Below are positions 17,014 through 56,107 of a DNA stretch of 64,000 bases, one piece after another (position 1 is the first letter of the stretch; every line of letters starts with the position of its first letter). The stretch covers positions 7,354 to 71,353 of the forward strand of contig CAZIYD010000002.1 in the NCBI GenBank assembly GCA_964543375.1, read 5' to 3'. The translations under genes and the position numbers were made by a program. The notes under the pieces were generated by a model. The model did no database searches. It had not been told where the DNA came from and saw only the letters and a list, made by a program, of their open reading frames with translations. The stretch is from an uncultured Muribaculaceae bacterium (lineage in GTDB: Bacteria; Bacillota_I; Bacilli_A; RF39; UBA660).

Positions 17014-17014
17014 A

Positions 17015-18028: not shown

Positions 18029-18036
18029 ATTTACCT

Positions 18037-18375: not shown

Positions 18376-18378
18376 AAA

Positions 18379-18395
18379 ACCACTAAAGTGGTGTT
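18379..18395 (-). terminator. hairpin plus U-run between rpmH and rnpA (partial terminator/attenuator)
   Basis: Minus strand ACCACTTTAGTGGTTTTTTGTT: 6-bp stem ACCACT/AGTGGT followed by a U-run. A partial terminator at this position is known in Bacillus rpmH-rnpA. Confidence 0.4.
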
Positions 18396-18524
18396 CTATT
18401 TAGTTAATTTTTTTCTTCCTTTTTTTCTTCTAGCTGAAACAACACCAGAATCTGCTTTTTTTCGAGCAAAGAATCCATGTATCTTTTTAGCTTTAGATTT
18501 ATTAGGTTGATATGTTCTTTTCAT
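18396..18524 (-). CDS. rpmH: 50S ribosomal protein L34 (ORF absent from the supplied track)
   Basis: Manual translation [42 protein letters not shown] (42 aa) is a canonical L34. RBS GGAGGAAGT precedes the ATG. Located at oriC upstream of rnpA. Confidence 0.9.
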
Positions 18525-18540
18525 ACTTCCTCCTCTTCTT

Positions 18541-18816
18541 AAAACATTATAATTATAAAGGTTAAGCATTTAAAAGTCAATTAAAAAATTATAAACATAT
18601 TAACATACTTGTTGATTAAAAATAATAGTTGTTAATTACAAAAAATATATGATTTTGTGGATAAGTGTATTCTTTTACTATAAAAACTAATAATTAGTTG
18701 TTATTAACTCTGTGGATAAGTTGTTATTAACTTGTTATTTATTATTTTGTTGTTTAATTTTTGAAGAAAATGATTTACAATATAGTTAAATTGTTTGAAA
18801 GTAGGAGGTAAATTTT
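18541..18816. promoter_or_regulatory. oriC region upstream of dnaA with DnaA boxes
   Basis: Two perfect DnaA boxes (TGTGGATAA, the complement of TTATCCACA) at 18657-18665 and 18711-18719, AT-rich flanks and the dnaA promoter region. Confidence 0.75.
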
Positions 18817-20166
18817 ATGGATGAAATAAAATTATGGGAAAATTTTTTAAATTTAATTAAAGATAAAATATCTCCTATATCATATGATACTTGGTTTAGT
18901 GATACAAAATTACATAAAATAGAAAATAAAAAGATATTTATTATAGTTCCCATGAACATTCACAAAAAAAATATTCAAGAAAATTATTCAGATTTATTAA
19001 AAGAAACTATTAACTCTTTAACAGGAACTAATTTTGAATTTATATTTTTATTAGAAGAAGAAATCAATGTTAAAGATGTAAACAATGTAGAAGAGGGTGT
19101 CCCTTTTAATAATCCTATACAAGCTAATTTAAATCCTAATTATACTTTTGATACTTTTGTTATTGGAGAAACTAATAGAATGTCATTTACTGCTGCTTTT
19201 GCGGTTGCAGAAAGACCGGGAAAAGCATATAATCCACTATTTTTATATGGTAGTAGTGGTCTTGGAAAAACTCATTTAATGCAAGCTATTGGAAATTATA
19301 TAATTGAAAATACTAATAAAAAGGTTTTATATATAACAAGTGATAAATTTAAATCAGATTTTATAGCAATAAATAAGAGAAAACATGATGAAAATAATAT
19401 AGAATATGTTGATTCTTTTAAAGAAAAATACAGAAATATAGATGTATTAATAATAGATGATATACAATTTCTAGCAGGCGCTACCGAAAGTCAAACAGAA
19501 TTTTTTCATACATTTAATGAACTTCATCAAGAAGGAAAACAAATAATAATTTCTTCAGACAGATCTCCAGATGATTTAAAATTACTAGAAGAACGTTTAA
19601 GAACTAGATTTAACTGGGGACTTGCAGTAAATATATTTCCACCTGATTATGAACTTAGAATTGAAATATTAAAGAAGAAGTTATCTGTTCACGATATAGC
19701 TAGACCTATAAAAGAAGATGTTCTTGTATTTATTGCTACCAATTGTGCTTCAGATGTAAGAAAGTTAGAAGGAGCATTAAATAGATTATTTGCTTATACA
19801 GCAATGTTTAATAAAGAAATTATAGATATTGATGTTGCTAAAGAAGCCTTAAATGATTTTTTAAGTAGTACTGAATATATAAAAAATAATATTCAAAAAA
19901 TTCAAAAAATTGTAAGTGATTTTTATCAAATAACCGTTGAAGATTTAAATTCTAAAAAAAGAAATAATAAGGTTGCTTTTCCTAGACAAGTAGCAATGTA
20001 TTTATCTAGACAATTAACAGATGAAAGTTTTCCTAGAATTGGTATAGAATTTGGGGGAAGAGATCATACAACGGTAATACATGCATGTAATAAAATTGAA
20101 CAAGAAATTAAAAATAATAAAGAATTTAAAAATACAATAGAGTTGTTGAAAAAGAAGTTAAAATAA
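18817..20166 (+). CDS. dnaA: chromosomal replication initiator protein DnaA
   Basis: 449 aa. AAA+ Walker A GSSGLGKTHL, sensor motifs, C-terminal DNA-binding helix VAMYLSRQLTDESFPRIGIEFGGRDHTTVIHA. Confidence 0.97.
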   Translation: MDEIKLWENFLNLIKDKISPISYDTWFSDTKLHKIENKKIFIIVPMNIHKKNIQENYSDLLKETINSLTGTNFEFIFLLEEEINVKDVNNVEEGVPFNNPIQANLNPNYTFDTFVIGETNRMSFTAAFAVAERPGKAYNPLFLYGSSGLGKTHLMQAIGNYIIENTNKKVLYITSDKFKSDFIAINKRKHDENNIEYVDSFKEKYRNIDVLIIDDIQFLAGATESQTEFFHTFNELHQEGKQIIISSDRSPDDLKLLEERLRTRFNWGLAVNIFPPDYELRIEILKKKLSVHDIARPIKEDVLVFIATNCASDVRKLEGALNRLFAYTAMFNKEIIDIDVAKEALNDFLSSTEYIKNNIQKIQKIVSDFYQITVEDLNSKKRNNKVAFPRQVAMYLSRQLTDESFPRIGIEFGGRDHTTVIHACNKIEQEIKNNKEFKNTIELLKKKLK

Positions 20167-20271
20167 TGTGTATAATAATAACAAAAATGGATTAAATAAA
20201 AGGAATAAATTGAATTATTCACATTATCCACTATAATAATAAAAATATAATAAAAAAGAAAGGAATATAAA
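20167..20271. promoter_or_regulatory. dnaA-dnaN intergenic AT-rich region with a DnaA box-like site (second oriC half / DUE candidate)
   Basis: TTATCCACT (8/9 match) at 20225-20233 within >85% AT sequence. Confidence 0.45.
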
Positions 20272-21390
20272 ATGAATTTTATAATAAAAAAAGAAATATT
20301 TTTAGAAAACTTAAACAATGTATCGAAAGCCATCTCATCAAAAAACATAATACCTATATTAGGAGGAATTAAATTAGATTTAGATAGTAATGGATTATCA
20401 CTAACTTGTAGTGATAATGAAATAACTATTAGAAGTTTTATAGAAAAAAAATACATAGATAAAATAAATACAAAAGGAAGTATTGTAATATTAGGTAGAT
20501 ATTTTATAGAATTAATTAGAAAAATACCTTGTGATACTATAGAAATAGTTACAGATGGATTAAATTTAACTATAAATACAAAAAATGGAGAATATAATTT
20601 AAATGGTATGAACCCAGAAGAATTTCCAGATAAAACTTTAGAATTAGTAGAAAATCCTATAAAAATAGATAAAAATGTAATAAAAAACATAATAAATCAA
20701 ACATCATTTGCAATATCAAATCAAGAATCTCGTCCAATATTAACGGGTATAAATATCAAAATCAAAGATAATAAAATGGAATGTGTAGCAACAGATTCTT
20801 ATAGACTTGCTAAAAAAATGCTAAAAATTGAAGAAAATATAAAAGAAGAAGTAAATATAGTAATACCTGGAAGAAATTTAATAGAACTATCCAAAATAAT
20901 AAATGATGAACCAGAAAAAGTAGAATTTCATATTTTTTCAAGTAATGTTTTATTTAAATTTGATAATATCTTATTTCAATCTAGATTATTAAATGGAACT
21001 TATCCAGATACTTCAAAATTAATAAAATTAGATTCTTTAGTAAATATAACTGTTAATACAGAAGAATTATATAATTCAATAGATAGAGCTTCTCTTTTAA
21101 CTAATGAAAAAGATAAAAATGTAATAAAAATGGAATTAAAAGAAAAAGAGTTAATAATAAGTTCAACATCTCAAGAAATAGGTAATATAGAAGAAAAGAT
21201 AGAAATAGAAAAAAATAATGATACAAATATAGAAATATCATACTCTTCTAAATATATGATGGAAGCACTTAGAACTATAAAAAGTCAAAAAACGGAAATT
21301 CATATAGGTGGCGAGATAAAACCTATAATATTAAAATCCACAGAAGATGATAATTTAATTCAATTAATAGTTCCAATAAAAACTTTTTAA
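20272..21390 (+). CDS. dnaN: DNA polymerase III beta sliding clamp
   Basis: 372 aa. Three-domain beta-clamp pattern, N-terminus MNFIIKKEIFLENLNNVSKAI. Conserved position after dnaA. Confidence 0.95.
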   Translation: MNFIIKKEIFLENLNNVSKAISSKNIIPILGGIKLDLDSNGLSLTCSDNEITIRSFIEKKYIDKINTKGSIVILGRYFIELIRKIPCDTIEIVTDGLNLTINTKNGEYNLNGMNPEEFPDKTLELVENPIKIDKNVIKNIINQTSFAISNQESRPILTGINIKIKDNKMECVATDSYRLAKKMLKIEENIKEEVNIVIPGRNLIELSKIINDEPEKVEFHIFSSNVLFKFDNILFQSRLLNGTYPDTSKLIKLDSLVNITVNTEELYNSIDRASLLTNEKDKNVIKMELKEKELIISSTSQEIGNIEEKIEIEKNNDTNIEISYSSKYMMEALRTIKSQKTEIHIGGEIKPIILKSTEDDNLIQLIVPIKTF

Positions 21391-45240: not shown

Positions 45241-45810
45241 ATGGAAAGAGGAAAAAATTCGCAAGTTATAATCATTGGAATATTGGCGGTTGCCTTGTTG
45301 GTTATGTCAGTAGGTTATGCTGCAGCATTTAACACAACTTTAAACATTAATGGTACAGCTACTGCTAAAGCTGCAAAGTGGGATGTTAGTTTTGATACTG
45401 CAAGTTATGCAGAATCAACTGGAAGCGTACAAGCTACAAATCATAATGTTACTGGAACAACTGCATCTTATACGATTACATTGACAAAACCCGGCGATTT
45501 TTATGAGTTTTCTGTAAACGCTGTTAATGGTGGTACTTTTGATGCTAATCTTACAAAGGTTACTTTAAGTGCTCTTAGCGCTGCTCAAGCTGAATATATT
45601 GAATATTCATTAAATTATGCAGGAACAGAGTATACAGCAACAACTGATAGTCTATCTGTTTTATTGGCTGCAAAAAATGATGGTGACACCGATACTGCTA
45701 CAGTAAAAGTTAGAGTTGAATATGTTCAACCTGCTGATGCTGCAAATTTGCCAACATCTGATCAAACAATAACTTTGACAGCTGCATTGGATTACACACA
45801 AGCACAATAA
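45241..45810 (+). CDS. secreted protein with SipW-cognate (TasA/camelysin-class) signal peptide; Ala/Thr-rich candidate fibre subunit
   Basis: 189 aa. N-terminal h-region then VGYAAAF (cf. TasA GGGTWAAFND, CalY GGGTFAFFSD). Strong RBS TAAGGAGGTAAG. Composition differs from neighbours (GC-richer, Ala/Thr/Gly-rich). Confidence 0.6.
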   Translation: MERGKNSQVIIIGILAVALLVMSVGYAAAFNTTLNINGTATAKAAKWDVSFDTASYAESTGSVQATNHNVTGTTASYTITLTKPGDFYEFSVNAVNGGTFDANLTKVTLSALSAAQAEYIEYSLNYAGTEYTATTDSLSVLLAAKNDGDTDTATVKVRVEYVQPADAANLPTSDQTITLTAALDYTQAQ

Positions 45811-45841: not shown

Positions 45842-46981
45842 ATGAAAAAGAACGAAACAACTATATACTTTGTTTTGGGATTATTAATAATCTTTGCCTT
45901 TATATATTATTTTTTAGTGCAAAATAATTATAATAGTTTTATTGCAGAAACAATATATTTGATTTTTAATGGAGCAATTGCTATATTTTTATATTTTAAG
46001 TTTAATTTAAAACAAAAAAATAAAAAGTTAAATAAAGTAACTACTAGAACTATTATAATAGTTTTTATGAGCACTTTATTGGCAATATATTTAAGTGGAT
46101 TATTTTTGGGTTTTTCTAGGAGTGTATTTTTATTAAAACCATATAATATATTTCTTAACACTTATCCAGTAATACTTTCTGCTTTATTTTTAGAAGTAAT
46201 AAGATATGAGGTTGCTCAAAACTCAAGAAACAAGAACACTCTATTAATATTATTAACAATATATTTTATAGTTTTTAGTTTGGTTTTAAGTGCAAAAACA
46301 TATAGTTTTCATAACAATGAACAAATATTTAGATTTTTTTGTATATATTTTTGTCCGATTTTTGCAAAAGAAATGTTATACAGTTATTTATCATATCATG
46401 TTGGAATCAAATCAACATTTGTCTCAAGAATCATATTTGATTTATACCCGTATGTGTTTCCAATATATCCAAATTTAGGAGAATATTTGAATTGCATAAT
46501 GTTTTTGGTGATCCCTTATATTATATATGCTAAAACTAGTAATTATGTTAAATATGTTGAACAAAATAAAGAGTATAATAGTATTAATAGATGGGTAATG
46601 TTTGTACCATTATTTTTGTTTTTTTTAATAATATTTATTTTATCGTTTGGAATCACTAAATATAAGTTAATTGCTATAGCTACTGGTTCAATGAAGCCGG
46701 TATATGATAGAGGCGATACAATAATATATGAAAAAATGGGAGCAAATAATATATATGTTGGGGAAGTGTTGGCTTTCAAATATAATGGTGTTACTATTAC
46801 TCATAGAGTAGTAAGTAAGTATAAAAATGGAGAAAAGTATATTTTTAAAACAAAAGGTGATGCTAATAAAGATATTGATTTCTTTGAAGTAACAGAAAAC
46901 GAAGTTTTGGGGAAAGTAGAATTTGTTATTCCTTATATTGGGTTCCCATCAATTTTAATTAAAGATTTACTTGGTAAATAG
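45842..46981 (+). CDS. SipW-type (archaeal/ER-type, S26B) signal peptidase I fused to an N-terminal polytopic membrane domain
   Basis: 379 aa. C-terminal about 110 aa contain IAIATGSMKPVYDRGD (catalytic Ser in the SM motif) and VTITHRVV (catalytic His), as in SipW. N-terminal about 260 aa comprise 7-8 predicted TM helices. Confidence 0.7.
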   Translation: MKKNETTIYFVLGLLIIFAFIYYFLVQNNYNSFIAETIYLIFNGAIAIFLYFKFNLKQKNKKLNKVTTRTIIIVFMSTLLAIYLSGLFLGFSRSVFLLKPYNIFLNTYPVILSALFLEVIRYEVAQNSRNKNTLLILLTIYFIVFSLVLSAKTYSFHNNEQIFRFFCIYFCPIFAKEMLYSYLSYHVGIKSTFVSRIIFDLYPYVFPIYPNLGEYLNCIMFLVIPYIIYAKTSNYVKYVEQNKEYNSINRWVMFVPLFLFFLIIFILSFGITKYKLIAIATGSMKPVYDRGDTIIYEKMGANNIYVGEVLAFKYNGVTITHRVVSKYKNGEKYIFKTKGDANKDIDFFEVTENEVLGKVEFVIPYIGFPSILIKDLLGK

Positions 46982-46992
46982 GGTGATAAAAC

Positions 46993-48081
46993 ATGTCAAA
47001 AAATAAATTATTTTTAAAATATTTTTGTTTGTGTATAATAATAGTAATATTAATGCTTTTTAGTTTTTTTATGTTTAAAAAAGGTTTTAGCAATAAAGAA
47101 CAATATGTATTGTCTTACAATAAAACTTCATTAATTGATTACAAAGTGTATTTAAAAGATAATGATTTTTTTGATGTTTCGTTTTTAACTAAAGAAGAAT
47201 TAATAAGAAATAATAGATCAATAATTACAAATTTGATAGATTATTTAGAAATTAATTATAAATATGATATGAAATATTCTGATGTAGTAAAAGGAGAATA
47301 TACATATTATGTTGAATTAATATTAAAAGCTAATAAAATGAATAGTGAAGATAAAAACTATTGGGATAAAACATATCAAATAACAGAACCTAAGAAATTA
47401 ATAATTAATAATGAAAAAAATTTTGGTATTATTCAAAATGTTAAAATAGATTATGAAAAATATAATAATATTTTAGATGATTTTAAGAAGCAACAGGGTT
47501 TGGCGACAAATGGGAATTTAGAAGTAGCTCTCGTTGTTGAGTCTAATGTTAAAAACGAAAAAATAACAAAAAAAATAAATTTAAATAATAGAGAAAGTTT
47601 TAATATACCTCTTTCACAAATGGCGGTAGATGCATCTATAACTTTAGATGAAAAAGGGGAAAAAATAGGTAGTGTTAATGAAACGATTAAATCAAATGAT
47701 TTTAAATTTACAAAATATAAAATAATTGCCCTACTATCAAGTTCTTTGTCGATTACTTTTTTAATAGTATTGATAATTTTAATTAGGTACGATAGAACCT
47801 TGCGCGAGTATAGTATTAAATTAAAAAAAATATTAAGTGGTTATGATGATATTGTCGTAAATGTAAATGTACTTCCCGATGTGAGTAAATTAAACATTAT
47901 ACATGTTGAATCTTTTGCTGAGTTGTTAAATGCTCATGGTGAAGTTAGAATGCCCATTAATTGCTATATAAGTAAAAGAAAAAATAAAGCAACTTTTATA
48001 CTCATAAATGAACCTATTGCGTGGGTATATATATTAAAAGATAAAAATTTGAAAAAGAGTGATATAGATGAAAAATATTAA
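46993..48081 (+). CDS. two-TM membrane protein of unknown function (candidate assembly/anchoring factor)
   Basis: 362 aa. N-terminal TM CLCIIIVILMLFSFFMF, large middle domain, second TM IIALLSSSLSITFLIVLIILI, cytoplasmic tail. Overlaps the next gene by 14 bp. Confidence 0.5.
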   Translation: MSKNKLFLKYFCLCIIIVILMLFSFFMFKKGFSNKEQYVLSYNKTSLIDYKVYLKDNDFFDVSFLTKEELIRNNRSIITNLIDYLEINYKYDMKYSDVVKGEYTYYVELILKANKMNSEDKNYWDKTYQITEPKKLIINNEKNFGIIQNVKIDYEKYNNILDDFKKQQGLATNGNLEVALVVESNVKNEKITKKINLNNRESFNIPLSQMAVDASITLDEKGEKIGSVNETIKSNDFKFTKYKIIALLSSSLSITFLIVLIILIRYDRTLREYSIKLKKILSGYDDIVVNVNVLPDVSKLNIIHVESFAELLNAHGEVRMPINCYISKRKNKATFILINEPIAWVYILKDKNLKKSDIDEKY

Positions 48082-50398
48082 AAAAACATTTTTGTTATTA
48101 CTTTTTTTAGTTCTTTTATCATTTATTACTGTTGGATATGCATATTATACTAAATTATTGAATATTTCTGGTGTTGTTACGATTCCGAATTATGGAAAAG
48201 TATTAATTACCCAAATTAATATGATAGACAGTATGAGTGTAACCGAAAATACACCCACTGTTGTAAATGGCTTAAATTTTGATTTTAATTTAACTATTTC
48301 AGGAAACACATCACAACATTATATTACATATGCTGTTACTCTATCAAATAATTCTGTAGAGGATGTTGTTTATATAGATGCAAATATTAATTGTAACATT
48401 GTACCAAATAGTGGTGATGATACGGCAACATATAATATAGAATTAACGGGTATAAATAGTGGTGATATTATACCGGCAGGAGAGAGTGTAGTAATTCAAT
48501 CTAAAATTATATTTGAAGTAAGTAATCCAAATAATATATATGTAGCAACTGGTAGTATATCTAATGATACCAGTACTGATCAAAGTGGAACATTATTGGG
48601 TAGTATAACTGGTTCAAATACAGGGGACTTAACTGGCAGTAATACGATAACTGATTTTAATTTAAATGTTATAAATTCTTATTCTGTTAATAAAAACTTT
48701 AAAATATTTGTTACTAATTCTAGTAATTTTGAAATATGTGATGAAAACGGAACAGCAAATATTAGTTTTGATATAAATGCTAATTCTCAAGAAAATTATA
48801 CATTCTATATTAAGAAAAAAGATGGAGCGTTATTTCCGAATAATACGGAAAGTTTAAATTTAACATTAAAATCTATTGGTGTACCTAATTGTTCTTTAGG
48901 AACTATAACCATTAGTGTTGACCCATCGCCTGTAGCAGACGCTGAAGCCCCGATTATAAGTAGTGTTACAGCAAACCAAGATACAACTGTTGGGAATGTT
49001 ACTGTTGCTTGGAATGCACAAGATGACTCAACTATTACAAGTTTTACAGTAAATGTTTATAATAGTAGTGGAGTCTTACAAAAAACTGTTAATACATCTG
49101 GAGAAACAACAACTGTTATTAATAATTTAGCTGATGGCACATATTATTTTACTGTTTTTGGCACAGATACACTTGGTAATACTGCAACAGTGCAAGAAAT
49201 TGGCAATGCAACCACTTCTTCTGGGCACGCATCAAGGTCTAGTAATTTGATTTGTAAATGGACTTATACTGTTAATACATCCGGACTAAAAAATATGTCT
49301 TCTAACGGAACTTCAACGGCCAAAAAGGGAACTACATATACAGCAACTTTAACTGCTGCAAGTAACTATACTTTGCCAAACACTATAACTGTAGTAATGA
49401 ATGGTGTAACATTAACTTCTGGAAGCGGTTATTCATATGTTCAGAATACCGGAAAGTTAGACATATACAACGTTAATGGCGATATAAGTATATCTGGTAC
49501 AGCGACATCAAACACTTGTTTAGCAAAAGGAACTTTAATAAAAACATATAATGGATATAAAAAAATAGAAGATATATATTATGATGATTTATTAGAGGTG
49601 TATGATCATATAAGAGGAGTTTTTACCTATAGTTATCCAATATGGATAGAAGAAGCAAAAGAAACAGATAATTATATTTTAGTAACTTTTTCAGATAATA
49701 GTAATTTAAAAGTAGTGTCTTCACATTCGGTATTTGATGTTGATAAAAAAAGATATGTAGAAGTAAATGGTGAATTAAAAGTAAATGATCGAGTATACAA
49801 ATATAATAATGGAAAATTAGATATAGTAACAGTAAAAGGAATTAAAAAAGTTTTTGAAAACACCAAATATTATAATGTTGTAAGTTCCTATTATTATAAC
49901 ATTATAGCAAATAATCTTTTAACTACAGATTCAACATCGAGCATTTCTAACATATATGGTTTTAAAGATAATGCGATATATGATGATAATTTCTACAACA
50001 TTTCTAATGGACCCAAATTAGAATATAAAGATGTTAAAATGATCCCATATTATTTATATAAAGGACTTAATTTACAAAACGCTTTACCTTTAGTTAACAA
50101 TGGATTTAATTATGATTTCTTAACAACATTTTTAAAATTAAAAACTAAAAATCCCATTCAAATTAATAATGTTAACCATTGGATATTTAATGTTAATGGG
50201 GAAAAAATGTTAGTATCTGAAGGTAGTGTTCAAAAAGTGCCATTTACGCTTGATAAATATTATACTAAAGATAATGCTAAAAAATCATTGTTTGGATTGA
50301 GAAAACAAAAATATTATGATACTAGTAGTAATACATATTATTATTCTGGAGATAAAATAAAAATAAATCATAGTGTGTATTTAGAAAAAATAGATTGA
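48068..50398 (+). CDS. large secreted protein: SipW-cognate signal peptide, Ig/FN3-like modules, Hint (bacterial intein-like) domain and unknown about 240-aa C-terminal module
   Basis: 776 aa. Signal region with VGYAYYTK. FN3-like segment (AEAPIISSVTANQDTTVGNVTVAWNAQDDSTITSFTVNVYN...GTYYFTVFGTD). Hint block A CLAKGTLIKTYNGYKKIEDI, block B-like VVSSHSVFDV and block G-like YNIIANN. C-terminal region with no recognisable motif. Confidence 0.6.
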   Translation: MKNIKKTFLLLLFLVLLSFITVGYAYYTKLLNISGVVTIPNYGKVLITQINMIDSMSVTENTPTVVNGLNFDFNLTISGNTSQHYITYAVTLSNNSVEDVVYIDANINCNIVPNSGDDTATYNIELTGINSGDIIPAGESVVIQSKIIFEVSNPNNIYVATGSISNDTSTDQSGTLLGSITGSNTGDLTGSNTITDFNLNVINSYSVNKNFKIFVTNSSNFEICDENGTANISFDINANSQENYTFYIKKKDGALFPNNTESLNLTLKSIGVPNCSLGTITISVDPSPVADAEAPIISSVTANQDTTVGNVTVAWNAQDDSTITSFTVNVYNSSGVLQKTVNTSGETTTVINNLADGTYYFTVFGTDTLGNTATVQEIGNATTSSGHASRSSNLICKWTYTVNTSGLKNMSSNGTSTAKKGTTYTATLTAASNYTLPNTITVVMNGVTLTSGSGYSYVQNTGKLDIYNVNGDISISGTATSNTCLAKGTLIKTYNGYKKIEDIYYDDLLEVYDHIRGVFTYSYPIWIEEAKETDNYILVTFSDNSNLKVVSSHSVFDVDKKRYVEVNGELKVNDRVYKYNNGKLDIVTVKGIKKVFENTKYYNVVSSYYYNIIANNLLTTDSTSSISNIYGFKDNAIYDDNFYNISNGPKLEYKDVKMIPYYLYKGLNLQNALPLVNNGFNYDFLTTFLKLKTKNPIQINNVNHWIFNVNGEKMLVSEGSVQKVPFTLDKYYTKDNAKKSLFGLRKQKYYDTSSNTYYYSGDKIKINHSVYLEKID

Positions 50399-50436
50399 TA
50401 CTTCAATCTATTTTTTATTAATATTAAATATAACTC

Positions 50437-50481: not shown

Positions 50482-50979
50482 ATGAATAAAATAGTAGGTA
50501 GGGTATTAGTGTGCGTGTATTTATCTTTTGTGGTTATCTTATCACTATATTTATTTATGTATAGTCGTTTTGGAACATCTTCCATTGGAAAATACGTTGT
50601 TTTTAATGCTGAAAATATTAAATCATTTAGCAATGGCTCTTTAGTTGTGTCAAAGCACGAAGAAAAAGAACTAAATATAGATGATTCTATATTGTTTTAT
50701 AATGTTTATTCAACTAAAAAAGGAGTTTTAGAACAAAAAATAGTTTCTAAAGAAAAACTAAATGAAAAAGAAATAACATACGGTTTAGATAATAATAAGT
50801 TTGTTTCGAGTTCTTATGTTATAGGAAGTGTATCAAAATCTAATGCTATACCACTTCTTGGGCACATATTTAAAGTGTTGTCATCTTCTTTGGGCTATTT
50901 AATTTTTGCGCTGATTCCTACATTGTTTATGTTTGTTCTACAAGTTAGACAACTAACTAAAAAGTATAACATTAGGTGA
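50482..50979 (+). CDS. SipW-like membrane protein lacking catalytic Ser and His (predicted inactive pseudo-peptidase)
   Basis: 165 aa with N-TM and C-TM like SipW. Aligns with the canonical SipW at 55526: VVFNAENIKSF vs IFTVATGSMEP (Ser replaced), GVLEQKIVSKE vs GKVITHRVIEI (His replaced by Lys). C-terminal TM LGYLIFALIPTLFMF vs IGFYLLIVIPVAILI. Confidence 0.45.
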   Translation: MNKIVGRVLVCVYLSFVVILSLYLFMYSRFGTSSIGKYVVFNAENIKSFSNGSLVVSKHEEKELNIDDSILFYNVYSTKKGVLEQKIVSKEKLNEKEITYGLDNNKFVSSSYVIGSVSKSNAIPLLGHIFKVLSSSLGYLIFALIPTLFMFVLQVRQLTKKYNIR

Positions 50980-50982
50980 TTT

Positions 50983-51897
50983 ATGTTTGAAAAGTTAAAG
51001 AACAATAAATTAATCCTTCTAATAATTATAGTTGCTTCTCTTGGATTTTTAACTACTTTTGGAAGGTTTGTATACAATGAAATAAAGAAGAATTATTTCT
51101 TAACCCAAAATTTTTATTTTGAAAGCGACAAACTAAAAGAAAAACAAGTTTTATATAAAATAAATAACTATAATGGTGTAGATAGTTATGATATAGTTAT
51201 AAATATGAATAGTATAAAGAACAACAAAATAATAGCGAGCGAAGATATATCTTATGACATATCATATAATTGCTCTAGTAACGCAAATTGCAGTATAACA
51301 AAAACAAATGGTGTTATATATAAAGAAACAGGAACAGACTACTTTGTAATATCTATAAGTCCAAACACTACTCTTACTGATGGGAATGAAATGCTTTTGG
51401 AATTAATAGCAAGTTCTACTTCTCCATACGAAAAAACATTAAGCGCAAAGTTTCAGTTAGTAGTAGGAAACTATGGACTATCTTATGAGATAAATGATTC
51501 TGTAAATAGTCCTTATTTAGAATTAAAAGTAACAAACACTTTGGACTATTATAAAGTAAAGACAGCGTTTGGAACTTACGCCATAGATGACAAAATAGAT
51601 ATAGAAACCTATCTTACTCTAAGTGATAATGATAAAGCTAAGTGTGCATCTGCAATAATAAACTTAAGTTTTGATCCGAGTGTTGTAATATTTGATAATG
51701 CAACAGGAGTAGATGGAGAGGTTACTAATCAAACAACAACAAACATCGGAGGACATAACTATATAAATGGTATATCATTTAAAGTAGATGCAATATCATC
51801 AAGTGTAGTTAGATTTTATAAGAAAAACTCAAATAATAATTACACATATCCAATAACCAATCCAACATCTATAATCGGTGTAACATATACTTTGTAG
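50983..51897 (+). CDS. secreted/anchored beta-rich protein of unknown function
   Basis: 304 aa. N-terminal TM/signal LILLIIIVASLGFLTTFGRFVYNE (weak SipW-cognate-like TTFGRF), Ser/Thr/Asn-rich beta-type sequence. Confidence 0.5.
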   Translation: MFEKLKNNKLILLIIIVASLGFLTTFGRFVYNEIKKNYFLTQNFYFESDKLKEKQVLYKINNYNGVDSYDIVINMNSIKNNKIIASEDISYDISYNCSSNANCSITKTNGVIYKETGTDYFVISISPNTTLTDGNEMLLELIASSTSPYEKTLSAKFQLVVGNYGLSYEINDSVNSPYLELKVTNTLDYYKVKTAFGTYAIDDKIDIETYLTLSDNDKAKCASAIINLSFDPSVVIFDNATGVDGEVTNQTTTNIGGHNYINGISFKVDAISSSVVRFYKKNSNNNYTYPITNPTSIIGVTYTL

Positions 51898-52885: not shown

Positions 52886-54406
52886 ATGGAAACATTTTTA
52901 AGATTTTTATATGAGATGCTTGCTAACTTCTTTGGAGGTTTAATTCATATATTTAAAGCAATATATGAGTCTTTTAGCATGACTTTTAATATAAAAAGTT
53001 ATATTTCCATAATAAATCACTATAAAGGAGATTTTTCTACTCCCGAATGGTTGTTAGTTGGCCTTGTAATAATAATAATGTTAGCTATAATAGTTGGAAT
53101 AATAGTATTAATAATTGTACTAGTTAGAAAGTATATGAGAATAAGAAAAACTTTGGTAGAACAAGAAACACTGCTTGAAGAAGTGGGAAATTTAAATAAA
53201 AAAGTTTTAAGTTTATCTAAAGAGAAAGATGAAATACTCGCTATGAAAGTATCTCAACTAGGATTAAAACCAGGAGAATCGCCTACCGAAGAATTACCTG
53301 AGGGAGAAGAAGTATTATCTGATGAAAACATAAGATTCTCTAAATTGCATCAAATTGATAAAGATTATATAAATTATAAAGTTCAAAATTATGGGAATAC
53401 ATTTACTTTGCCAGAACTTGTAGATATGTTTAGAAACTTTGCTGCAGCTCAACTTGGTTTATTCTACAAAGAAGAGATGATAAGATTATTTATATCTGCT
53501 CTAGCCTCTACAAAGTTAATAATACTTCAAGGTATATCTGGAACAGGTAAAACATCTTTGGCGTATGCTTGGGGAAAGTTTTTAGATAATGACTCTTGTG
53601 TTGCATCAGTTCAACCATCTTGGAGAGATAGAACAGAATTATTTGGTTACTTTAATGAGTTTACTAAAAAGTTTAATGAAACAGATGTGCTTAAAGAAAT
53701 ATATACAGCGGGTTATACCGATGATATATATACAGTAATACTAGATGAGATGAACATATCTAGAGTTGAGTACTATTTCGCAGAAATGTTATCTATATTA
53801 GAAATGCCGAATAAAGATGAGTGGATAGTTGAACTAGTATCTAGCCCATGGGATAGCGACCCTAAATATGTTAAAGGTGGTAAATTAAAAATAGTACCTA
53901 ATGTTTGGTATATAGGTACTATAAATAATGATGACTCTACATTTATGGTAACGGATAAGGTATACGATAGAGCGATGCCTATTGATATAAATGAAAAGGG
54001 TCAAGAATTTGATGCTAAAGACATTCCGGCACAACACATAAATTATACTTATTTAGATAATTTATTTGAAACTGCTATGAATACATATAGCATATCTGAT
54101 GAAACATTAAAGAAAATAGAAGAAATGGACGATTATGTAATACAACACTTTAGAATAGCATTCGGTAATCGTATTGTAAGTCATATGAAAAAATTTGTTC
54201 CAGTATATATGGCCTGTGGTGGTGATGAAATAGATGGGGTTGATTACTTCGTTGCTAGAAAAATACTTAGAAAATTTGAACAATTAAATATATCTTACAT
54301 AAGAGATGAAGTTGATGGATATGTAGATTTTCTTAATAAGACATTTGGAAAAGACAAGATGAAAGAATCTATAGAATATCTAATTAGACTTAAGAAAAAT
54401 ACATAG
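52886..54406 (+). CDS. membrane-anchored McrB-family (AAA_5) GTPase
   Basis: 506 aa. Walker A ILQGISGTGKTSLA, Walker B TVILDEMN followed by the McrB signature ISRVEYYFAEMLSILE (cf. DEINRANISKIFGELITLLE) and PNVWYIGTINNDDSTF (cf. McrB NFYIIGTMNTADRS). N-terminus has TM helix LLVGLVIIIMLAIIVGIIVLIIVLV, positive-inside RKYMRIRK, and a coiled-coil instead of a DNA-binding domain. Confidence 0.7.
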   Translation: METFLRFLYEMLANFFGGLIHIFKAIYESFSMTFNIKSYISIINHYKGDFSTPEWLLVGLVIIIMLAIIVGIIVLIIVLVRKYMRIRKTLVEQETLLEEVGNLNKKVLSLSKEKDEILAMKVSQLGLKPGESPTEELPEGEEVLSDENIRFSKLHQIDKDYINYKVQNYGNTFTLPELVDMFRNFAAAQLGLFYKEEMIRLFISALASTKLIILQGISGTGKTSLAYAWGKFLDNDSCVASVQPSWRDRTELFGYFNEFTKKFNETDVLKEIYTAGYTDDIYTVILDEMNISRVEYYFAEMLSILEMPNKDEWIVELVSSPWDSDPKYVKGGKLKIVPNVWYIGTINNDDSTFMVTDKVYDRAMPIDINEKGQEFDAKDIPAQHINYTYLDNLFETAMNTYSISDETLKKIEEMDDYVIQHFRIAFGNRIVSHMKKFVPVYMACGGDEIDGVDYFVARKILRKFEQLNISYIRDEVDGYVDFLNKTFGKDKMKESIEYLIRLKKNT

Positions 54407-54414
54407 GTGTTCTT

Positions 54415-55557
54415 ATGGATGATTTGAAGTTATTTGATTTATACAATAGATCTAACGAAAAAAAGAAGGGGGATTTTTGGAAGAATGTAGATGCTTCACT
54501 TCAAGTAGAACACAATTTTGAAAAAAATATAATAGATGATAAATGGTTACTTATGATGGAGGAGACTGTAAGATATTTAGATAATATCTTAAGAAACCCC
54601 AATAGATTTATAATAAATGAAGAAGAAATAGTAAAGATAGAACTTGCAAGAAGAATAACTGTAGACAGTATAAAACATTTATCTAAGAATACCAATTTTA
54701 TACAAGATATAGACGAAGAAAGTGGAGATGTAAAGCCATCTAAAATTTTAAATATAAATAAGGAAGAAAGCTTTAATACGTATGAAAATAGATTTATATA
54801 TAGTTTGATAAAAAACATGAGAATCTATATAGATATGAAAAAAAGAGATATGGATCTTGGTGCTAATGATAAAAGCGATAAGATAATGAATTATGAGGGA
54901 AGAACTAAGGTTGGAAAAGAAAATGTAAATATAAATGTATCTCTTAGATCAACACTGAATAAGGCAGATGATGAGAATTCTTTAGAAAAAAGAATAGAGA
55001 GATTGGAACTTAGAATAAGTGATTTAATGAATACTGATGTTTATAGGACTATAGATAAGCTTAGAATAAGTTTAGTTAACTCTCCAATAAAGAAAACAAA
55101 CTTAATATTAAAAAACACAAACTTTCAGTATGCTGTTAAACTTTGGAACTTTATCCAAGAAAATTTAAAAGATGAAACAAAAGTAGAAGCAGGGAACGAA
55201 ATTTTAAAAGATGATGAAACATTGAAAGATTTCATGGATGAGATATTTATGCTTAACTACTTCGTTGTTAATACGCTTGAAAAAGATGAACCAGAAGAAG
55301 AAAAACAAAAAAAAGTTTCCGAAGTATTAATACAAAACTTAATACAAAAGTTAATATTAACTAACAAGAACATGACAAAGGGTGATTTGAGCAAGGCTGT
55401 ATCAGAACAATATAAATTAATAAAAGATCAGACTCTTGCAACCGAAAAAGAAATCCAAGAAATATTTAAATTAGCAATAAACGAGTATAATAAATCTATA
55501 AGTAATCTAAAACTAAGGAGTACAAATGCAAAAAATAAAAGAAAACCAAATTCTTAA
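54415..55557 (+). CDS. McrC N-terminal-domain-like (DUF2357-like) partner protein, no recognisable nuclease motif
   Basis: 380 aa. Helix NTYENRFIYSLIKNM aligns with the conserved McrC N-domain segment LANRIIKSTLAIL. No hD.K / PD-(D/E)xK motif found in the C-terminal half. 8 bp downstream of the GTPase gene. Confidence 0.45.
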   Translation: MDDLKLFDLYNRSNEKKKGDFWKNVDASLQVEHNFEKNIIDDKWLLMMEETVRYLDNILRNPNRFIINEEEIVKIELARRITVDSIKHLSKNTNFIQDIDEESGDVKPSKILNINKEESFNTYENRFIYSLIKNMRIYIDMKKRDMDLGANDKSDKIMNYEGRTKVGKENVNINVSLRSTLNKADDENSLEKRIERLELRISDLMNTDVYRTIDKLRISLVNSPIKKTNLILKNTNFQYAVKLWNFIQENLKDETKVEAGNEILKDDETLKDFMDEIFMLNYFVVNTLEKDEPEEEKQKKVSEVLIQNLIQKLILTNKNMTKGDLSKAVSEQYKLIKDQTLATEKEIQEIFKLAINEYNKSISNLKLRSTNAKNKRKPNS

Positions 55558-56107
55558 ATATTTGTGGAAAACAATAAAAATAATTGTGACATTATTTATT
55601 TTAATTATTATAGGTATAATAATAACTCAAAGAATATTTAATAATAATGTTTCTGTTTTGGGCTACAGGATATTCACGGTTGCAACTGGAAGTATGGAAC
55701 CTGAATATAAGGTTATGGATATACTATTTGTAAAAGAATCAAAAGAATCTCAAATAAAAGTAGGAGATGATGTAGTATATTTAGGAAAAGGTGGAACTTT
55801 TGATGGAAAAGTAATAACGCACAGAGTAATAGAGATAGAAAAAGAAAATGATATAGTGTCATTTCATACAAAGGGTATTGCAAATGATATAGAGGATCCA
55901 ATTGTCTACTATGATCAAATATACGGTAAAGTAATATACAAAGGAGTAGTACTTAGTTTTGTTAATAAAATAATAAACAACCCAATAGGCTTTTATTTAC
56001 TTATAGTAATACCCGTTGCAATCTTAATAACGCTCGAAATAATAGATAGAAAAAAAGAAAAAGATGAAAAAATAATAGAAGAGGAAATATTAGATTTAGA
56101 TGAATAA
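55526..56107 (+). CDS. sipW: signal peptidase I, SipW type (S26B)
   Basis: 193 aa. N-TM, RIFTVATGSMEPEYKVMD (Ser-Met), KVITHRVIEI (His), C-terminal TM IGFYLLIVIPVAILITL plus basic tail: canonical SipW architecture. RBS CTAAGGAG. Confidence 0.8.
   Translation: MQKIKENQILKYLWKTIKIIVTLFILIIIGIIITQRIFNNNVSVLGYRIFTVATGSMEPEYKVMDILFVKESKESQIKVGDDVVYLGKGGTFDGKVITHRVIEIEKENDIVSFHTKGIANDIEDPIVYYDQIYGKVIYKGVVLSFVNKIINNPIGFYLLIVIPVAILITLEIIDRKKEKDEKIIEEEILDLDE

What the first reader, a model, noticed from the sequence alone, without database searches (positions are those of the whole stretch)
48068..50398. Secreted protein combining a TasA-class signal, an FN3-like module and a Hint/bacterial-intein-like domain followed by an unknown C-terminal module (polymorphic-toxin-like architecture)
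The segment CLAKGTLIKTYNGYKKIEDI...VVSSHSVFDV...YYNIIANN has the block A/B/G organisation of Hint (Hedgehog/intein) domains. Bacterial intein-like domains of this kind occur in secreted proteins immediately upstream of C-terminal modules that they release autoproteolytically, notably in polymorphic toxin systems.

Here the about 240-aa module after the Hint domain has no motif I recognise, so it is a candidate novel released effector or toxin. The small membrane proteins encoded immediately downstream are then candidate immunity or processing factors. Alternatively the Hint domain could mediate covalent attachment of this subunit within a fibre.
Basis: partly seen in the sequence, partly recalled or inferred. 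Interest (0 to 1): 0.6.

Follow-up and report, generated by a model that had tools for sequence, protein, structure and literature searches.

The report
Self-cleaving Hint tail on fibre subunit
The gene encodes the large subunit of a four-gene bacterial surface-fibre operon whose last 293 residues are a Hedgehog-like self-cleaving (Hint) module with a conserved extension, not a toxin, and this undescribed module recurs on fibre, pilus, adhesin and phage-tail-fibre proteins of uncultured gut bacteria.

Summary
The ORF (48068-50398, +, 776 aa) is real and the Hint domain is real. The family profile hits inteins and BILs in the PDB. An AF2 model (pLDDT 86) matches the C. thermocellum BIL, inteins and Hedgehog HhC. 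Cys484 and His553 are invariant and Glu528 nearly so (76 of 77 homologs). The intein C-terminal His-Asn and the +1 nucleophile are absent, so only cleavage at the N-terminal junction (Thr483|Cys484) is expected, not splicing.

The module after the Hint is 155 aa, not about 240: a helical part plus a small beta part. It matches no toxin. It is better conserved than the N-terminal domains, and no conserved gene follows it in 80 loci. The polymorphic-toxin and immunity reading is therefore rejected.

The gene is the last of a conserved operon: a 189-aa subunit, a SipW-type signal peptidase, DUF5305, then this protein. Its first 157 aa are homologous to the small subunit. Related Hint modules also end type IV pilins, LRR adhesins and phage-tail-fibre-like proteins. 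Hint-less orthologs end at the Cys position, and each is followed by a divergent Lgt-like gene (4 of 4 loci, against 0 of 84).

Best reading: a Hog-like C-terminal autoprocessing module. The fate of the thioester is unresolved: transfer to an envelope acceptor (about 0.4) or hydrolysis (about 0.35).

The parts
45241..45810 (+). Small (189 aa) putative major fibre subunit, first gene of the operon. It has a hydrophobic N-terminus with the motif SVGYA|AAFNTTLNINGT.
   Evidence: ORF. Present upstream of the Hint protein in 53 of 80 related loci. Its family is homologous to aa 1-157 of the target (hhalign probability 98.4, E 5.5e-15). No TasA, PDB or NCBIfam match.
45842..46981 (+). SipW/archaeal-type signal peptidase I (379 aa). 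The N-terminal part is a multi-pass membrane domain; the catalytic part is aa ~258-372 (GSMKP..., THRV).
   Evidence: TIGR02228 sigpep_I_arch E 1e-22, 80.7 bits against a cut-off of 51.85. Weak Peptidase_S26/S24 hits. Collinear in 55 of 80 loci.
46993..48081 (+). DUF5305 protein (362 aa), the proposed accessory partner of the signal peptidase. It overlaps the target's start codon by 14 nt.
   Evidence: PF17231 E 1.8e-10, 41.1 bits against a cut-off of 29. Described as a signal-peptidase-associated accessory in tafi and AbpX fibre loci (PMC11821415; bioRxiv 10.64898/2026.01.04.697558).
48068..48142 (+). N-terminal signal/hydrophobic segment of the target (aa 1-25, MKNIKKTFLLLLFLVLLSFITVGYA). 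The presumed SipW-type cleavage site is near GYA|YY.
   Evidence: Read from the sequence. The motif is shared with the small subunit and aligned. The cleavage site is inferred, not tested.
48143..48538 (+). Subunit-like domain D1 (aa 26-157), homologous to the 189-aa small subunit.
   Evidence: hhalign of the small-subunit family against the target's N-terminal family: probability 98.4, E 5.5e-15, small 3-169 aligned to target 1-157.
48539..48937 (+). Second beta-rich domain (aa 158-290) of unknown family.
   Evidence: Conserved block in alignment A1. No family hit. Boundaries are approximate.
48938..49222 (+). FN3-like domain (aa 291-385).
   Evidence: fn3 E 0.0034 and Big_13 E 0.0034 in this protein. 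fn3 in 16 of 28 relatives, best 1.4e-7.
49223..49516 (+). Last Ig-like domain plus a short linker (aa 386-483). It ends at Thr483, the residue whose carbonyl is predicted to be attacked.
   Evidence: Conserved W398, Y457 and G471 in A1. The Hint-less orthologs P0027-P0032 stop here.
49517..49930 (+). Hint domain (aa 484-621). Cys484 and His553 are invariant and Glu528 is nearly so (76 Glu, 1 Asp). The domain ends ...IANNLLTTD, with no His-Asn.
   Evidence: fold. (77-sequence conservation).
49931..50155 (+). Helical, aromatic-rich extension (aa 622-696) that always accompanies this Hint family (SNxYGFxxNxxW ... PxYxYxGLR).
   Evidence: Helices at aa 622-692 in the model. N628, Y630, F632, W/Y638, P660 and G666 are conserved. 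The extension is retained even in truncated variants and in phage-tail-fibre-like relatives. No family or fold match.
50156..50395 (+). C-terminal beta subdomain (aa 697-776), weakly beta-grasp / InlB-B-repeat-like. It is optional in the family. This protein carries a private 16-aa insertion of low model confidence.
50385..50416 (+). Terminator-like hairpin: a 14-bp perfect stem that contains the TGA stop codon, followed by a U-run.
   Evidence: dG -14.1 kcal/mol, z -6.8, and 0 of 200 shuffles fold as well. Sequence.

Best explanation
The 776-aa protein is the large subunit of a SipW-type, TasA/Abp/tafi-like surface-fibre operon: small subunit, signal peptidase I, DUF5305, then this large subunit.

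Proposed mechanism:
1. The protein is exported by Sec, and its N-terminal signal is removed by the operon's peptidase.
2. Its first domain, a homolog of the small subunit, joins the fibre.
3. Its last 293 residues form a Hedgehog-like ('Hog-like') autoprocessing module: a Hint domain plus a conserved, tightly associated extension.
4. Cys484 attacks the Thr483 carbonyl in an N-to-S acyl shift, assisted by His553.
5. The resulting thioester is resolved. Residues ~26-483 are separated from Hint+extension, which is a by-product rather than a cargo.

No cleavage at the C-terminal junction of the Hint and no splicing take place.

My preferred fate for the acyl group is transfer to a nucleophile positioned by the extension, with Glu528 as the base, as Asp46 serves in Hedgehog. 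The most likely acceptor is a membrane lipid or a cell-wall amine. This would fix the C-terminus of the subunit to the envelope without sortase.

Shown here: the ORF, the operon, the Hint fold, the catalytic residues, the absence of splicing residues, and the conservation and distribution of the module. Inferred: cleavage itself, the fibre, the acceptor and the anchoring role.

Confidence that it is an N-junction self-processing module is about 0.75. Confidence in the full statement, including transfer and anchoring, is about 0.4.
For: - Hint fold and catalytic residues: profile hits in the PDB; AF2 model with pLDDT 86 and pTM 0.83; Foldseek matches to BIL, inteins and Hedgehog HhC. Cys484, Leu485, Gly488, Thr489 and His553 are invariant and Glu528 is 76 of 77.
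- No His-Asn, no +1 Cys/Ser/Thr and no block-F Asp, so only N-junction chemistry is left.
- The extension is conserved and modelled as one unit with the Hint (pTM 0.83 for all 302 residues). The helical part is retained in every variant, as SRR/ARR is in Hog proteins (PMC2362128).
- An hhalign of the family against a Drosophila HhC sequence that I recalled from memory puts Glu528 opposite Asp46 and His553 opposite His72. This is a lead only.
- Operon context: the small subunit, SPase and DUF5305 are collinear with the Hint protein in 55 of 80 loci from representative genomes. D1 is homologous to the small subunit. DUF5305 plus SPase I marks tafi and AbpX fibre loci.
- C-terminus at the envelope: Hint-less orthologs stop at the junction. 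Three of them end ...GGCG(G), keeping the Cys. In 4 of 4 such loci a divergent Lgt-family (diacylglyceryl-transferase-like) gene abuts the 3' end. It is found in 0 of 84 Hint-bearing loci and not in the window.
- P0022 and P0023 replace the beta subdomain with a linker, a TM helix and an acidic tail.
- The module sits at the extreme C-terminus of large LRR_5/Flg_new/DUF285 surface proteins.
Against: - No cleavage, adduct or fibre has been observed. All relatives come from uncultured organisms.
- Block-B Thr and block-F Asp, which assist thioester formation in inteins, are not conserved.
- Related modules also end proteins that already have an N-terminal anchor or would not need a C-terminal one. 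These are lipoprotein-signal adhesins, type IV pilin-like proteins (N_methyl) and Mtd_N phage-tail-fibre-like proteins. That favours a generic self-removing pro-domain over an anchor.
- The Lgt-like link is genomic association only, and P0031 and P0032 lack the terminal Cys.
- The small subunit has no detectable homology to TasA, so the fibre is inferred from context.
- No bacterial Hint is known to transfer its substrate to a lipid or to the wall.
Confidence: 0.4

Rival explanations
1. Self-removing C-terminal pro-domain. The chemistry at Thr483|Cys484 is the same, but the thioester is simply hydrolysed. Hint+extension acts as an intramolecular chaperone, an assembly brake or a temporary tether, and is discarded once the subunit is folded or incorporated. 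Nothing is attached to the product.
For: - All the catalytic evidence listed for the best explanation applies.
- BIL domains characterised in vitro mainly give cleavage products, and type B BILs only cleave (PMC4031507).
- Relatives of the module end Mtd_N phage-tail-fibre-like proteins, type IV pilin-like proteins and lipoprotein-anchored adhesins, where anchoring is unnecessary.
- Self-cleaving C-terminal chaperone domains are established for phage tail spikes and fibres (my own knowledge, not tested here).
- The TM-tailed variants P0022 and P0023 fit a 'tether, then release' scheme.
Against: - It does not explain why Hint-less orthologs keep a Cys at the junction and always have an Lgt-like neighbour.
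- It does not explain the near-invariant Glu528 at the position that serves the transfer step in Hedgehog.
- It does not explain why a 75-aa aromatic-rich extension is conserved as strongly as the Hint itself.
Confidence: 0.35
2. Reactive-thioester cross-linker. The junction thioester is attacked by an amine of another fibre subunit, or of a target surface such as a host glycoprotein or a partner bacterium. This gives covalent polymerisation or covalent adhesion at the distal end. It is the first reader's fallback idea.
For: - Type A BILs show that an amine can resolve a Hint thioester (PMC4031507).
- The module is found on tip-type proteins: pilins, tail-fibre-like proteins and LRR adhesins.
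- Variants occur in MAGs labelled as epibiotic Saccharibacteria.
Against: - Each molecule can react only once, and only at its C-terminus, so the reaction cannot polymerise a fibre.
- The Lgt-like replacement points to the membrane, not to a distal target.
- No acceptor motif was identified in the small subunit.
Confidence: 0.1
3. Polymorphic toxin. The Hint releases the C-terminal module as an effector, and the downstream small membrane proteins give immunity.
For: - The architecture resembles PT-HINT pro-toxins superficially: secreted repeats, then a Hint, then a C-terminal domain (PMC3113570).
- One of 28 relatives hits PT-HINT at E 0.0018.
Against: - The C-terminal module is conserved, not polymorphic. 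Hint and helical identity equal or exceed N-terminal identity in most of the 21 relatives compared, including all the closest ones. There are 503 representatives at E<=1e-10.
- No toxin, PADLOC, Pfam or PDB match.
- The beta part is at most beta-grasp-like.
- There is no C-terminal His-Asn for cargo release.
- No gene is conserved downstream in 80 loci; the largest cluster covers 6 loci and is a second SPase.
- The window's downstream genes lie beyond a terminator and are absent from the related loci.
- The next gene looks like a degenerate SipW homolog (E 0.007).
Confidence: 0.03
4. Catalytically dead Hint used only as a structural or binding module at the end of the stalk.
For: Block-B Thr, block-F Asp and the C-terminal His-Asn are all missing. 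No cleavage has been shown.
Against: Cys484, His553 and the CLxxGT motif are invariant in 77 sequences whose other regions have diverged to 20-35% identity. Dead Hint domains would be expected to lose these residues.
Confidence: 0.07

Closest known systems
Hedgehog / Hog autoprocessing domains (Hint + SRR/ARR) of eukaryotes
   Same: - The order is the same: a secreted N-terminal 'product', then Cys, then Hint, then a conserved non-Hint extension.
- Only the N-terminal junction is reactive. There is no His-Asn and no splicing.
- The block-B His is invariant, and an acidic residue (Glu528) sits about 45 residues after the Cys.
- The fold matches 1AT0 and 6TYY (Foldseek E about 7e-6).
- Several relatives hit Pfam Hint PF01079 weakly.
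   Different: - It is bacterial.
- The extension (a 75-aa helical part plus an optional 80-aa beta part) has no detectable similarity to SRR.
- The TxxH Thr is not conserved.
- All PF01079 scores are below the gathering threshold.
- The acceptor, if there is one, is unknown. Sterols are unlikely in these organisms.
Bacterial intein-like (BIL) domains, types A and B (Amitai et al. 2003; reviewed in PMC4031507)
   Same: - A Hint domain in a secreted bacterial protein that is not inserted in a conserved host gene.
- It lacks a +1 nucleophile.
- The best structural match is the C. thermocellum type A BIL 2LWY (target-normalised TM 0.83).
- Like type B, it lacks intein block G and is expected only to cleave.
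   Different: - There is no His-Asn, so it is not type A.
- Only 2 of 28 relatives touch Hint_2 weakly, so type B membership is not shown.
- It has a fixed C-terminal position, a dedicated conserved extension and a fixed operon context (SipW peptidase/DUF5305). None of these has been described for BILs in the papers searched.
PT-HINT of polymorphic toxins (Zhang/Aravind; PMC3113570)
   Same: A Hint domain in the C-terminal part of a large secreted multi-domain protein, proposed to act as an autoproteolytic releasing peptidase.
   Different: There is no variable toxin tip, no immunity gene and no pre-toxin domains. The part after the Hint is conserved family-wide.
TasA-TapA-SipW (Bacillus), archaeal bundling pili/AbpX and haloarchaeal tafi loci
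   Same: - A dedicated SipW/archaeal-type signal peptidase I with a DUF5305 partner.
- A small major subunit plus larger accessory subunits that share its N-terminal domain.
- Bacterial AbpX loci often encode an anchor protein.
   Different: - The subunits here have no detectable sequence homology to TasA, camelysin or solved Abp structures.
- No Hint domain is mentioned in the one paper searched for it (0 occurrences of 'Hint' or 'intein').
Sortase/LPXTG anchoring, and C-terminal self-cleaving chaperone domains of phage tail spikes (functional analogies from general knowledge)
   Same: - A C-terminal module that is removed while the product is either fixed to the envelope (sortase) or released in mature form (phage chaperone domains).
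- The TM-plus-charged-tail variants resemble a sorting signal.
- Mtd_N tail-fibre-like relatives exist.
   Different: The chemistry here is self-catalysed by a Hint fold. There is no LPXTG motif and no Peptidase_S74 similarity.

Membership tests
HINT (Hedgehog/intein) superfamily | Hint beta-fold | tested here: met
   AF2 model pLDDT 86.3. Foldseek probability 1.00 to BIL, inteins and HhC, with target-normalised TM 0.72-0.87. Profile hits to PDB inteins and BIL at E 5e-4.
HINT (Hedgehog/intein) superfamily | Block A nucleophile (Cys/Ser as the first residue) and block B His | tested here: met
   Cys484 and His553 are invariant in 77 of 77 sequences.
Canonical (class 1) intein | C-terminal His-Asn and a +1 Cys/Ser/Thr on the C-extein | tested here: not met
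   The domain ends T-T-D: the penultimate residue is Thr/Ser, the last is Asp/Glu, and +1 is Gly/Ile/Ala/Asp/Arg.
Canonical (class 1) intein | Insertion in a conserved host protein whose flanks are ligated; intein-free alleles are continuous | tested here: not met
   Hint-less orthologs simply end at the junction and lack the downstream 155 aa as well. There is no homing endonuclease.
BIL type A | Intein-like block G with His-Asn | tested here: not met
   The definition is from PMC4031507.
BIL type B | Hint lacking block G similarity, cleavage only; sequence membership (Pfam Hint_2, to my knowledge) | tested here: inconclusive
   The lack of block G is consistent. However, only 2 of 28 relatives hit PF13403 (best E 0.0013, below the cut-off).
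PT-HINT / polymorphic toxin system | Variable C-terminal toxin domain after the Hint | tested here: not met
   The post-Hint module is conserved, widespread and has no toxin match.
PT-HINT / polymorphic toxin system | Cognate immunity gene immediately downstream | tested here: not met
   No downstream family is shared by more than 6 of 80 loci. A terminator follows the gene.
Hog domain (Hedgehog-type autoprocessing) | Hint followed by a conserved adduct-recognition region, with N-junction cleavage only | tested here: met
   The architecture is met: a conserved 75-155-aa extension modelled together with the Hint. This is a resemblance in organisation only. There is no sequence similarity to SRR/ARR.
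Hog domain (Hedgehog-type autoprocessing) | Transfer of the N-terminal product to a small-molecule nucleophile (cholesterol) | not testable with these tools
   This needs biochemistry. The indirect leads are Glu528 opposite HhC Asp46 in an alignment to a recalled sequence, and the Lgt-like replacement.
SipW-dependent TasA-like fibre locus | Dedicated SipW/archaeal-type signal peptidase I in the operon | tested here: met
   TIGR02228 at 80.7 bits, above the cut-off of 51.85. Conserved synteny.
SipW-dependent TasA-like fibre locus | Subunit homologous to TasA/camelysin (Peptidase_M73) or to solved Abp pilins | tested here: not met
   The small-subunit profile finds nothing in the PDB, and the best NCBIfam hits are chance-level. 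No Pfam M73 hit.
SipW-dependent TasA-like fibre locus | Donor-strand-complemented filament | not tested
A multimer prediction of the small subunit with D1 was not possible.

The most novel reading that the evidence does not exclude
Bacteria have a Hedgehog-style autoprocessing system. A Hint domain with a dedicated acceptor-binding extension would covalently transfer the C-terminus of fibre subunits, pilins and large adhesins onto a membrane lipid or a cell-wall nucleophile. This would be self-catalysed, sortase-independent surface anchoring. In some lineages it would be interchangeable with a C-terminal Cys modified by a dedicated Lgt-like lipid transferase, which would itself be an undescribed C-terminal lipidation route.
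Probability: 0.3. Interest if true: 0.85.

Novelty: new variant of a known kind. Interest (0 to 1): 0.6.

Why it matters
Hint domains are known from inteins, Hedgehog, BILs and toxin release. Their natural roles in ordinary bacterial surface proteins are essentially untested.

This analysis defines a large, coherent family: about 1,300 cluster representatives, spread across uncultured gut and rumen Bacillota and MAGs labelled Saccharibacteria. It has a fixed architecture (Cys, Hint, helical extension), a fixed place at the C-terminus of fibre, pilus, adhesin and tail-fibre proteins, and a fixed operon partner set.

If it only self-cleaves, it is a new maturation step for TasA-like fibres. It would also be a compact natural self-cleaving tag. 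If it transfers its substrate, it would be the first bacterial counterpart of Hedgehog lipidation and a new way of anchoring surface proteins, and it would bear on where the Hog domain came from.

The mutually exclusive Lgt-like neighbour gives a concrete, testable handle on the question.

Tried and rejected
- Single-sequence Pfam, NCBIfam and PDB searches of the target gave only sub-threshold Hint signals. Family profiles and a structure model were needed.
- TasA homology of the small subunit: there was no hit, so 'TasA-like' rests on context only.
- BLASTP of the 189-aa and 304-aa neighbours against the target was uninformative. The profile-profile comparison was needed.
- The promoter and terminator consensus scan was uninformative in this DNA of about 26% G+C. 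The terminator was found by eye and confirmed by folding.
- The AlphaFold-DB fold library was unavailable.
- Genetic code 4 read-through of the TGA stop was considered and rejected. TGA ends 11 of 55 long ORFs, and homologs end at the same position.
- My first literature query was badly chosen, because 'BIL' matched 'bile'. Later queries found no paper linking Hint domains to pilins or SipW loci.
- The alignment to Hedgehog HhC used a sequence recalled from memory and has poor statistics. I treat it as a lead only.

Full report
**1. What is at the coordinates**

Window 48068-50398 (+) is a single ATG-to-TGA ORF of 776 aa. The DNA has about 26% G+C. The same protein, residue for residue, is encoded on several independently assembled metagenome contigs with the same neighbours. 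The TGA is a true stop: 11 of 55 long ORFs in the window end in TGA, and all full-length homologs end at the same place. The stop codon lies inside a 14-bp perfect hairpin followed by a U-run (50385-50416). The hairpin has dG -14.1 kcal/mol and z -6.8, and none of 200 shuffles folds as well.

**2. The Hint domain is real**

On its own the sequence gives only sub-threshold signals: intein_Nterm at E 0.069 and the Pho RadA intein at E 0.16. The database search returned 32 relatives, and alignments A1 and A2 were built from them.

- Of 28 aligned members, 8 hit Hom_end_hint, 3 hit Hint (PF01079), 2 hit Hint_2, 1 hits Intein_splicing and 1 hits PT-HINT.
- A profile of aa 475-776 from 18 members hits PDB intein and BIL chains at E 5e-4 to 2e-3, over essentially the whole Hint (profile positions 12-154).
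- An AlphaFold2 model of aa 475-776 has mean pLDDT 86.3 and pTM 0.83.
- Foldseek against the PDB returns 57 hits at E<=1e-3. The 50 hits listed are all inteins, BILs or Hedgehog autoprocessing domains. They are led by the C. thermocellum bacterial intein-like domain 2LWY (target-normalised TM 0.83). They include the Tetrahymena BUBL BIL2, many mini-inteins, and Hedgehog HhC 1AT0 and 6TYY.

**3. Which chemistry is possible**

I cut the Hint-plus-tail region from 76 further homologs found in GTDB representative genomes and examined it column by column.

- Invariant in 77 of 77: Cys484, Leu485, Gly488, Thr489 (block A, CLxxGT), Lys498, Ile500, Glu501, Ile503, Tyr505, Asp507, Gly517 and His553 (block B His).
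- Nearly invariant: Trp526, Glu528 (76 Glu, 1 Asp) and Asp543.
- Not conserved: the block-B Thr (three residues before the His it is Val/Phe/Ile) and the block-F Asp (His/Phe/Asn).
- The domain ends ...Y-Y-N-I-I-A-N-[DN]-x-L-T-T-[DE]. Inteins and type A BILs have His-Asn at this point. The next residue is Gly/Ile/Ala/Asp/Arg, never a conserved Cys/Ser/Thr.

By the definitions summarised in PMC4031507, this excludes a canonical intein and a type A BIL. What remains is the first step only: an N-to-S acyl shift at Thr483|Cys484, followed by resolution of the thioester. That is the Hedgehog / type B BIL style of reaction, in which the N-terminal part is the product. This chemistry is inferred. No tool here can show cleavage.

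**4. The module after the Hint**

It is 155 aa (aa 622-776), not about 240. The model shows a helical, aromatic-rich part (aa 622-696) and a small beta part (aa 697-776). A separate model of this module alone gave pLDDT 76.8, with about 90 in the beta part.

- Sixteen such modules have no Pfam family in common. The best single hits are chance-level, apart from one Flg_new hit at E 0.019.
- The profile finds nothing credible in the PDB.
- Foldseek finds nothing significant.
- A profile-profile test against Flg_new repeats was inconclusive (probability 14%).
- No toxin-like family or fold appears anywhere, and PADLOC is silent.

**5. The polymorphic-toxin test fails**

- Per-region identity to 21 relatives shows that the Hint and the helical part are the best conserved regions, while the first domain is the most variable. 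For P0003 the values are 85% and 81% against 58%. There is no drop after the Hint.
- An exhaustive HMMER search with aa 480-776 found 1,295 cluster representatives at E<=1e-3 and 503 at E<=1e-10. Most cover the whole module.
- Clustering all ORFs within 3.5 kb downstream of the gene in 80 loci gave no family shared by more than 6 loci. That family is a second signal peptidase.
- The window's own downstream genes (165, 304, 322 and 506 aa) have no counterparts downstream of the gene in the related loci, and they lie beyond the terminator.
- The 165-aa protein looks like a degenerate SipW homolog (E 0.007).
- The 506-aa and 380-aa pair is McrB-like AAA plus DUF2357, a defence module.

**6. The real context is a fibre-type operon**

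Upstream and co-directional lie three genes. One intergenic gap is 31 nt, one is 11 nt, and the last gene overlaps the target by 14 nt.

- A 189-aa secreted protein (45241-45810).
- A 379-aa SipW/archaeal-type signal peptidase I (45842-46981; TIGR02228, 80.7 bits against a cut-off of 51.85).
- A DUF5305 protein (46993-48081; PF17231, 41.1 bits against a cut-off of 29).

In 80 loci fetched from representative genomes with the Hint module as bait, 61 contain peptidase, DUF5305 and the Hint protein. In 55 of them the three genes are collinear and adjacent, and 53 also have the small subunit. The cassette moves as a unit between different chromosomal neighbourhoods.

The small-subunit family is homologous to aa 1-157 of the target, shared N-terminal motif included (hhalign probability 98.4, E 5.5e-15).

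Recent work describes DUF5305 as a signal-peptidase-associated accessory in haloarchaeal tafi and in archaeal and bacterial AbpX/TasA-like donor-strand fibres. Those loci contain a major subunit, minor or tip subunits and, in bacteria, often an anchor protein (PMC11821415 and bioRxiv 10.64898/2026.01.04.697558).

One caveat applies. The small subunit has no detectable homology to TasA or to any solved structure. The fibre is therefore inferred from context, not shown.

**7. Where else the module occurs**

Homologs of the Hint plus helical extension occur at the extreme C-terminus of several other protein types:
- other SipW-type subunits, with AYFSD-like signals and a peptidase next door;
- type IV pilin-like proteins (N_methyl above threshold in L011 and P0098);
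- very large DUF285, Flg_new and LRR_5 surface proteins, some with lipoprotein signals;
- Mtd_N phage-tail-fibre-like proteins (P0156 and P0177, above threshold).

Versions in MAGs labelled Saccharibacteria lack the beta part. P0022 and P0023 replace it with a linker, a TM helix and an acidic tail. The conserved core is therefore Cys-Hint plus the helical extension, attached to the C-terminal end of fibrous extracellular proteins. All source genomes are uncultured gut or rumen MAGs.

**8. A natural experiment**

A clade of orthologs (P0027-P0032, about 520 aa, 55-60% identical to each other) sits in the same operon but lacks Hint+extension. These proteins stop at the junction, and three of them end ...GGCG(G), keeping the Cys.

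In all four loci I could fetch (L006, L087, L088 and L089), the gene is abutted by a convergent gene for a divergent Lgt-family membrane protein. It is 222-229 aa where complete (the L089 copy is cut by the contig end) and carries PF01790. NCBIfam lgt models score 22-55 bits against cut-offs of 119 and 334, so it is not the housekeeping Lgt. An iterated search with it finds no copy in the 84 Hint-bearing loci or in the 64-kb window.

Lgt enzymes attach diacylglycerol to a Cys thiol at the outer face of the membrane (general knowledge). The mutually exclusive pattern suggests two things. First, the C-terminus of this subunit is dealt with at the membrane. Second, Hint+extension and 'terminal Cys plus Lgt-like enzyme' are alternative solutions to the same task.

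**9. Mechanism**

I am fairly confident (about 0.75) of the following. The module is a self-processing unit that cuts at Thr483|Cys484. The mature product is the large subunit (aa ~26-483). Hint+extension is a by-product, not a cargo.

How the thioester is resolved is open. I favour transfer to an acceptor bound by the extension, giving lipid or wall anchoring in the Hedgehog style (about 0.4). Four observations support this:
- the Lgt-like replacement;
- the tight, conserved extension;
- the TM-tailed variants;
- the near-invariant Glu528, which aligns with Hedgehog Asp46 when the family is aligned to an HhC sequence recalled from memory (poor statistics, a lead only).

Plain hydrolysis, that is a self-removing pro-domain or chaperone, is nearly as likely (about 0.35). 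It fits better with the occurrence on pilins, on adhesins that are already lipid-anchored, and on tail-fibre-like proteins. Covalent cross-linking to a target or to another subunit (about 0.1), a dead Hint (about 0.07) and a toxin (about 0.03) follow.

**10. Comparison and novelty**

The domain is a member of the HINT superfamily: the fold and the catalytic Cys and His were tested and met. It is not an intein and not a type A BIL, because both fail defining tests. Type B BIL membership is unproven. It fails the tests for PT-HINT systems. It works most like a Hog domain in organisation, without being a sequence member of that family.

Full-text searches found no paper connecting Hint domains with pilins, SipW or DUF5305 loci. 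Aravind and colleagues noted only in general terms that HINT domains occur in 'several bacterial surface proteins' (PMC3113570).

I rate it a new variant of a known kind, with interest 0.6.

Noticed in passing
L006:970-3206, L087:6001-8304, L088:3630-5850, L089:3407-5601: Hint-less orthologs of the target end at the junction, and three of them end ...GGCG(G). In 4 of 4 loci each is followed by an abutting, convergent gene for a divergent Lgt-family protein (PF01790, 222-229 aa where complete, far below the lgt equivalog cut-offs). That gene is absent from all 84 Hint-bearing loci and from the window. This may be a dedicated C-terminal Cys lipidation system.
   Followed up: partly
L011:6245-7915, L015:6542-7897, L020:2145-3803; proteins P0098, P0156, P0177, P0042, P0119, P0148, P0166: The same Hint plus helical extension ends several other protein types: type IV pilin-like proteins (N_methyl motif), Mtd_N phage-tail-fibre-like proteins, and giant DUF285, Flg_new and LRR_5 adhesins, some with lipoprotein signal peptides. 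It is a general C-terminal module of fibrous extracellular proteins.
   Followed up: partly
L069, L073, L078, L083; proteins P0021-P0023: Variants in MAGs labelled Saccharibacteria or Nanosyncoccus keep the Hint and the helical extension but lack the terminal beta subdomain. P0022 and P0023 carry a long linker, a TM helix and an acidic tail instead, which resembles a sorting signal.
   Followed up: partly
window 50385-50416: A perfect 14-bp hairpin containing the target's TGA stop codon, followed by a U-run (dG -14.1, z -6.8). It is a terminator that the consensus scan missed because the stem is AT-rich. It separates the fibre operon from the downstream genes.
   Followed up: yes
window 50482-51897: The 165-aa protein has TM segments at both ends and a weak SipW match (E 0.007), but no obvious SGSMxP catalytic motif. 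The 304-aa protein after it has a hydrophobic N-terminus and a beta-rich body. Together they may be a second, degenerate peptidase and subunit pair. They are not conserved with the cassette; a homolog of the 165-aa protein appears upstream in L019 and L037 only.
   Followed up: partly
window 52886-55557: A 506-aa McrB-like AAA protein (NCBIfam McrB E 7e-6; PADLOC PDC-M26A E 3e-35) is followed by a 380-aa DUF2357 protein. I take DUF2357 to be McrC-like, from memory. This looks like a restriction or defence module unrelated to the fibre operon. The next ORF (55526-56107) hits KwaA weakly.
   Followed up: partly
window ~17000-21000: GC skew and AT skew both change sign near 18-20 kb, and gene orientation diverges from that point (minus-strand genes before, plus-strand genes after). 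This looks like a chromosomal replication origin. The flanking ORFs were not identified.
   Followed up: no
window ~50255-50302 (aa ~730-745): The window's protein has a private 16-aa insertion (YTKDNAKKSLFGLRKQ) in the terminal beta subdomain. It is absent from all homologs, including the 78%-identical P0002, is modelled with low confidence, and is flanked by a repeated KYY. It may be a small duplication or slippage event.
   Followed up: no
L007:6672-8955 and five other loci: Several genomes carry a second signal peptidase/DUF5305 pair immediately downstream of the Hint gene. Some MAGs hold two Hint-bearing loci of different subunit type (for example L022 and L049, L058 and L066, L039 and L074, L055 and L086). 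One organism can therefore have multiple fibre systems.
   Followed up: no
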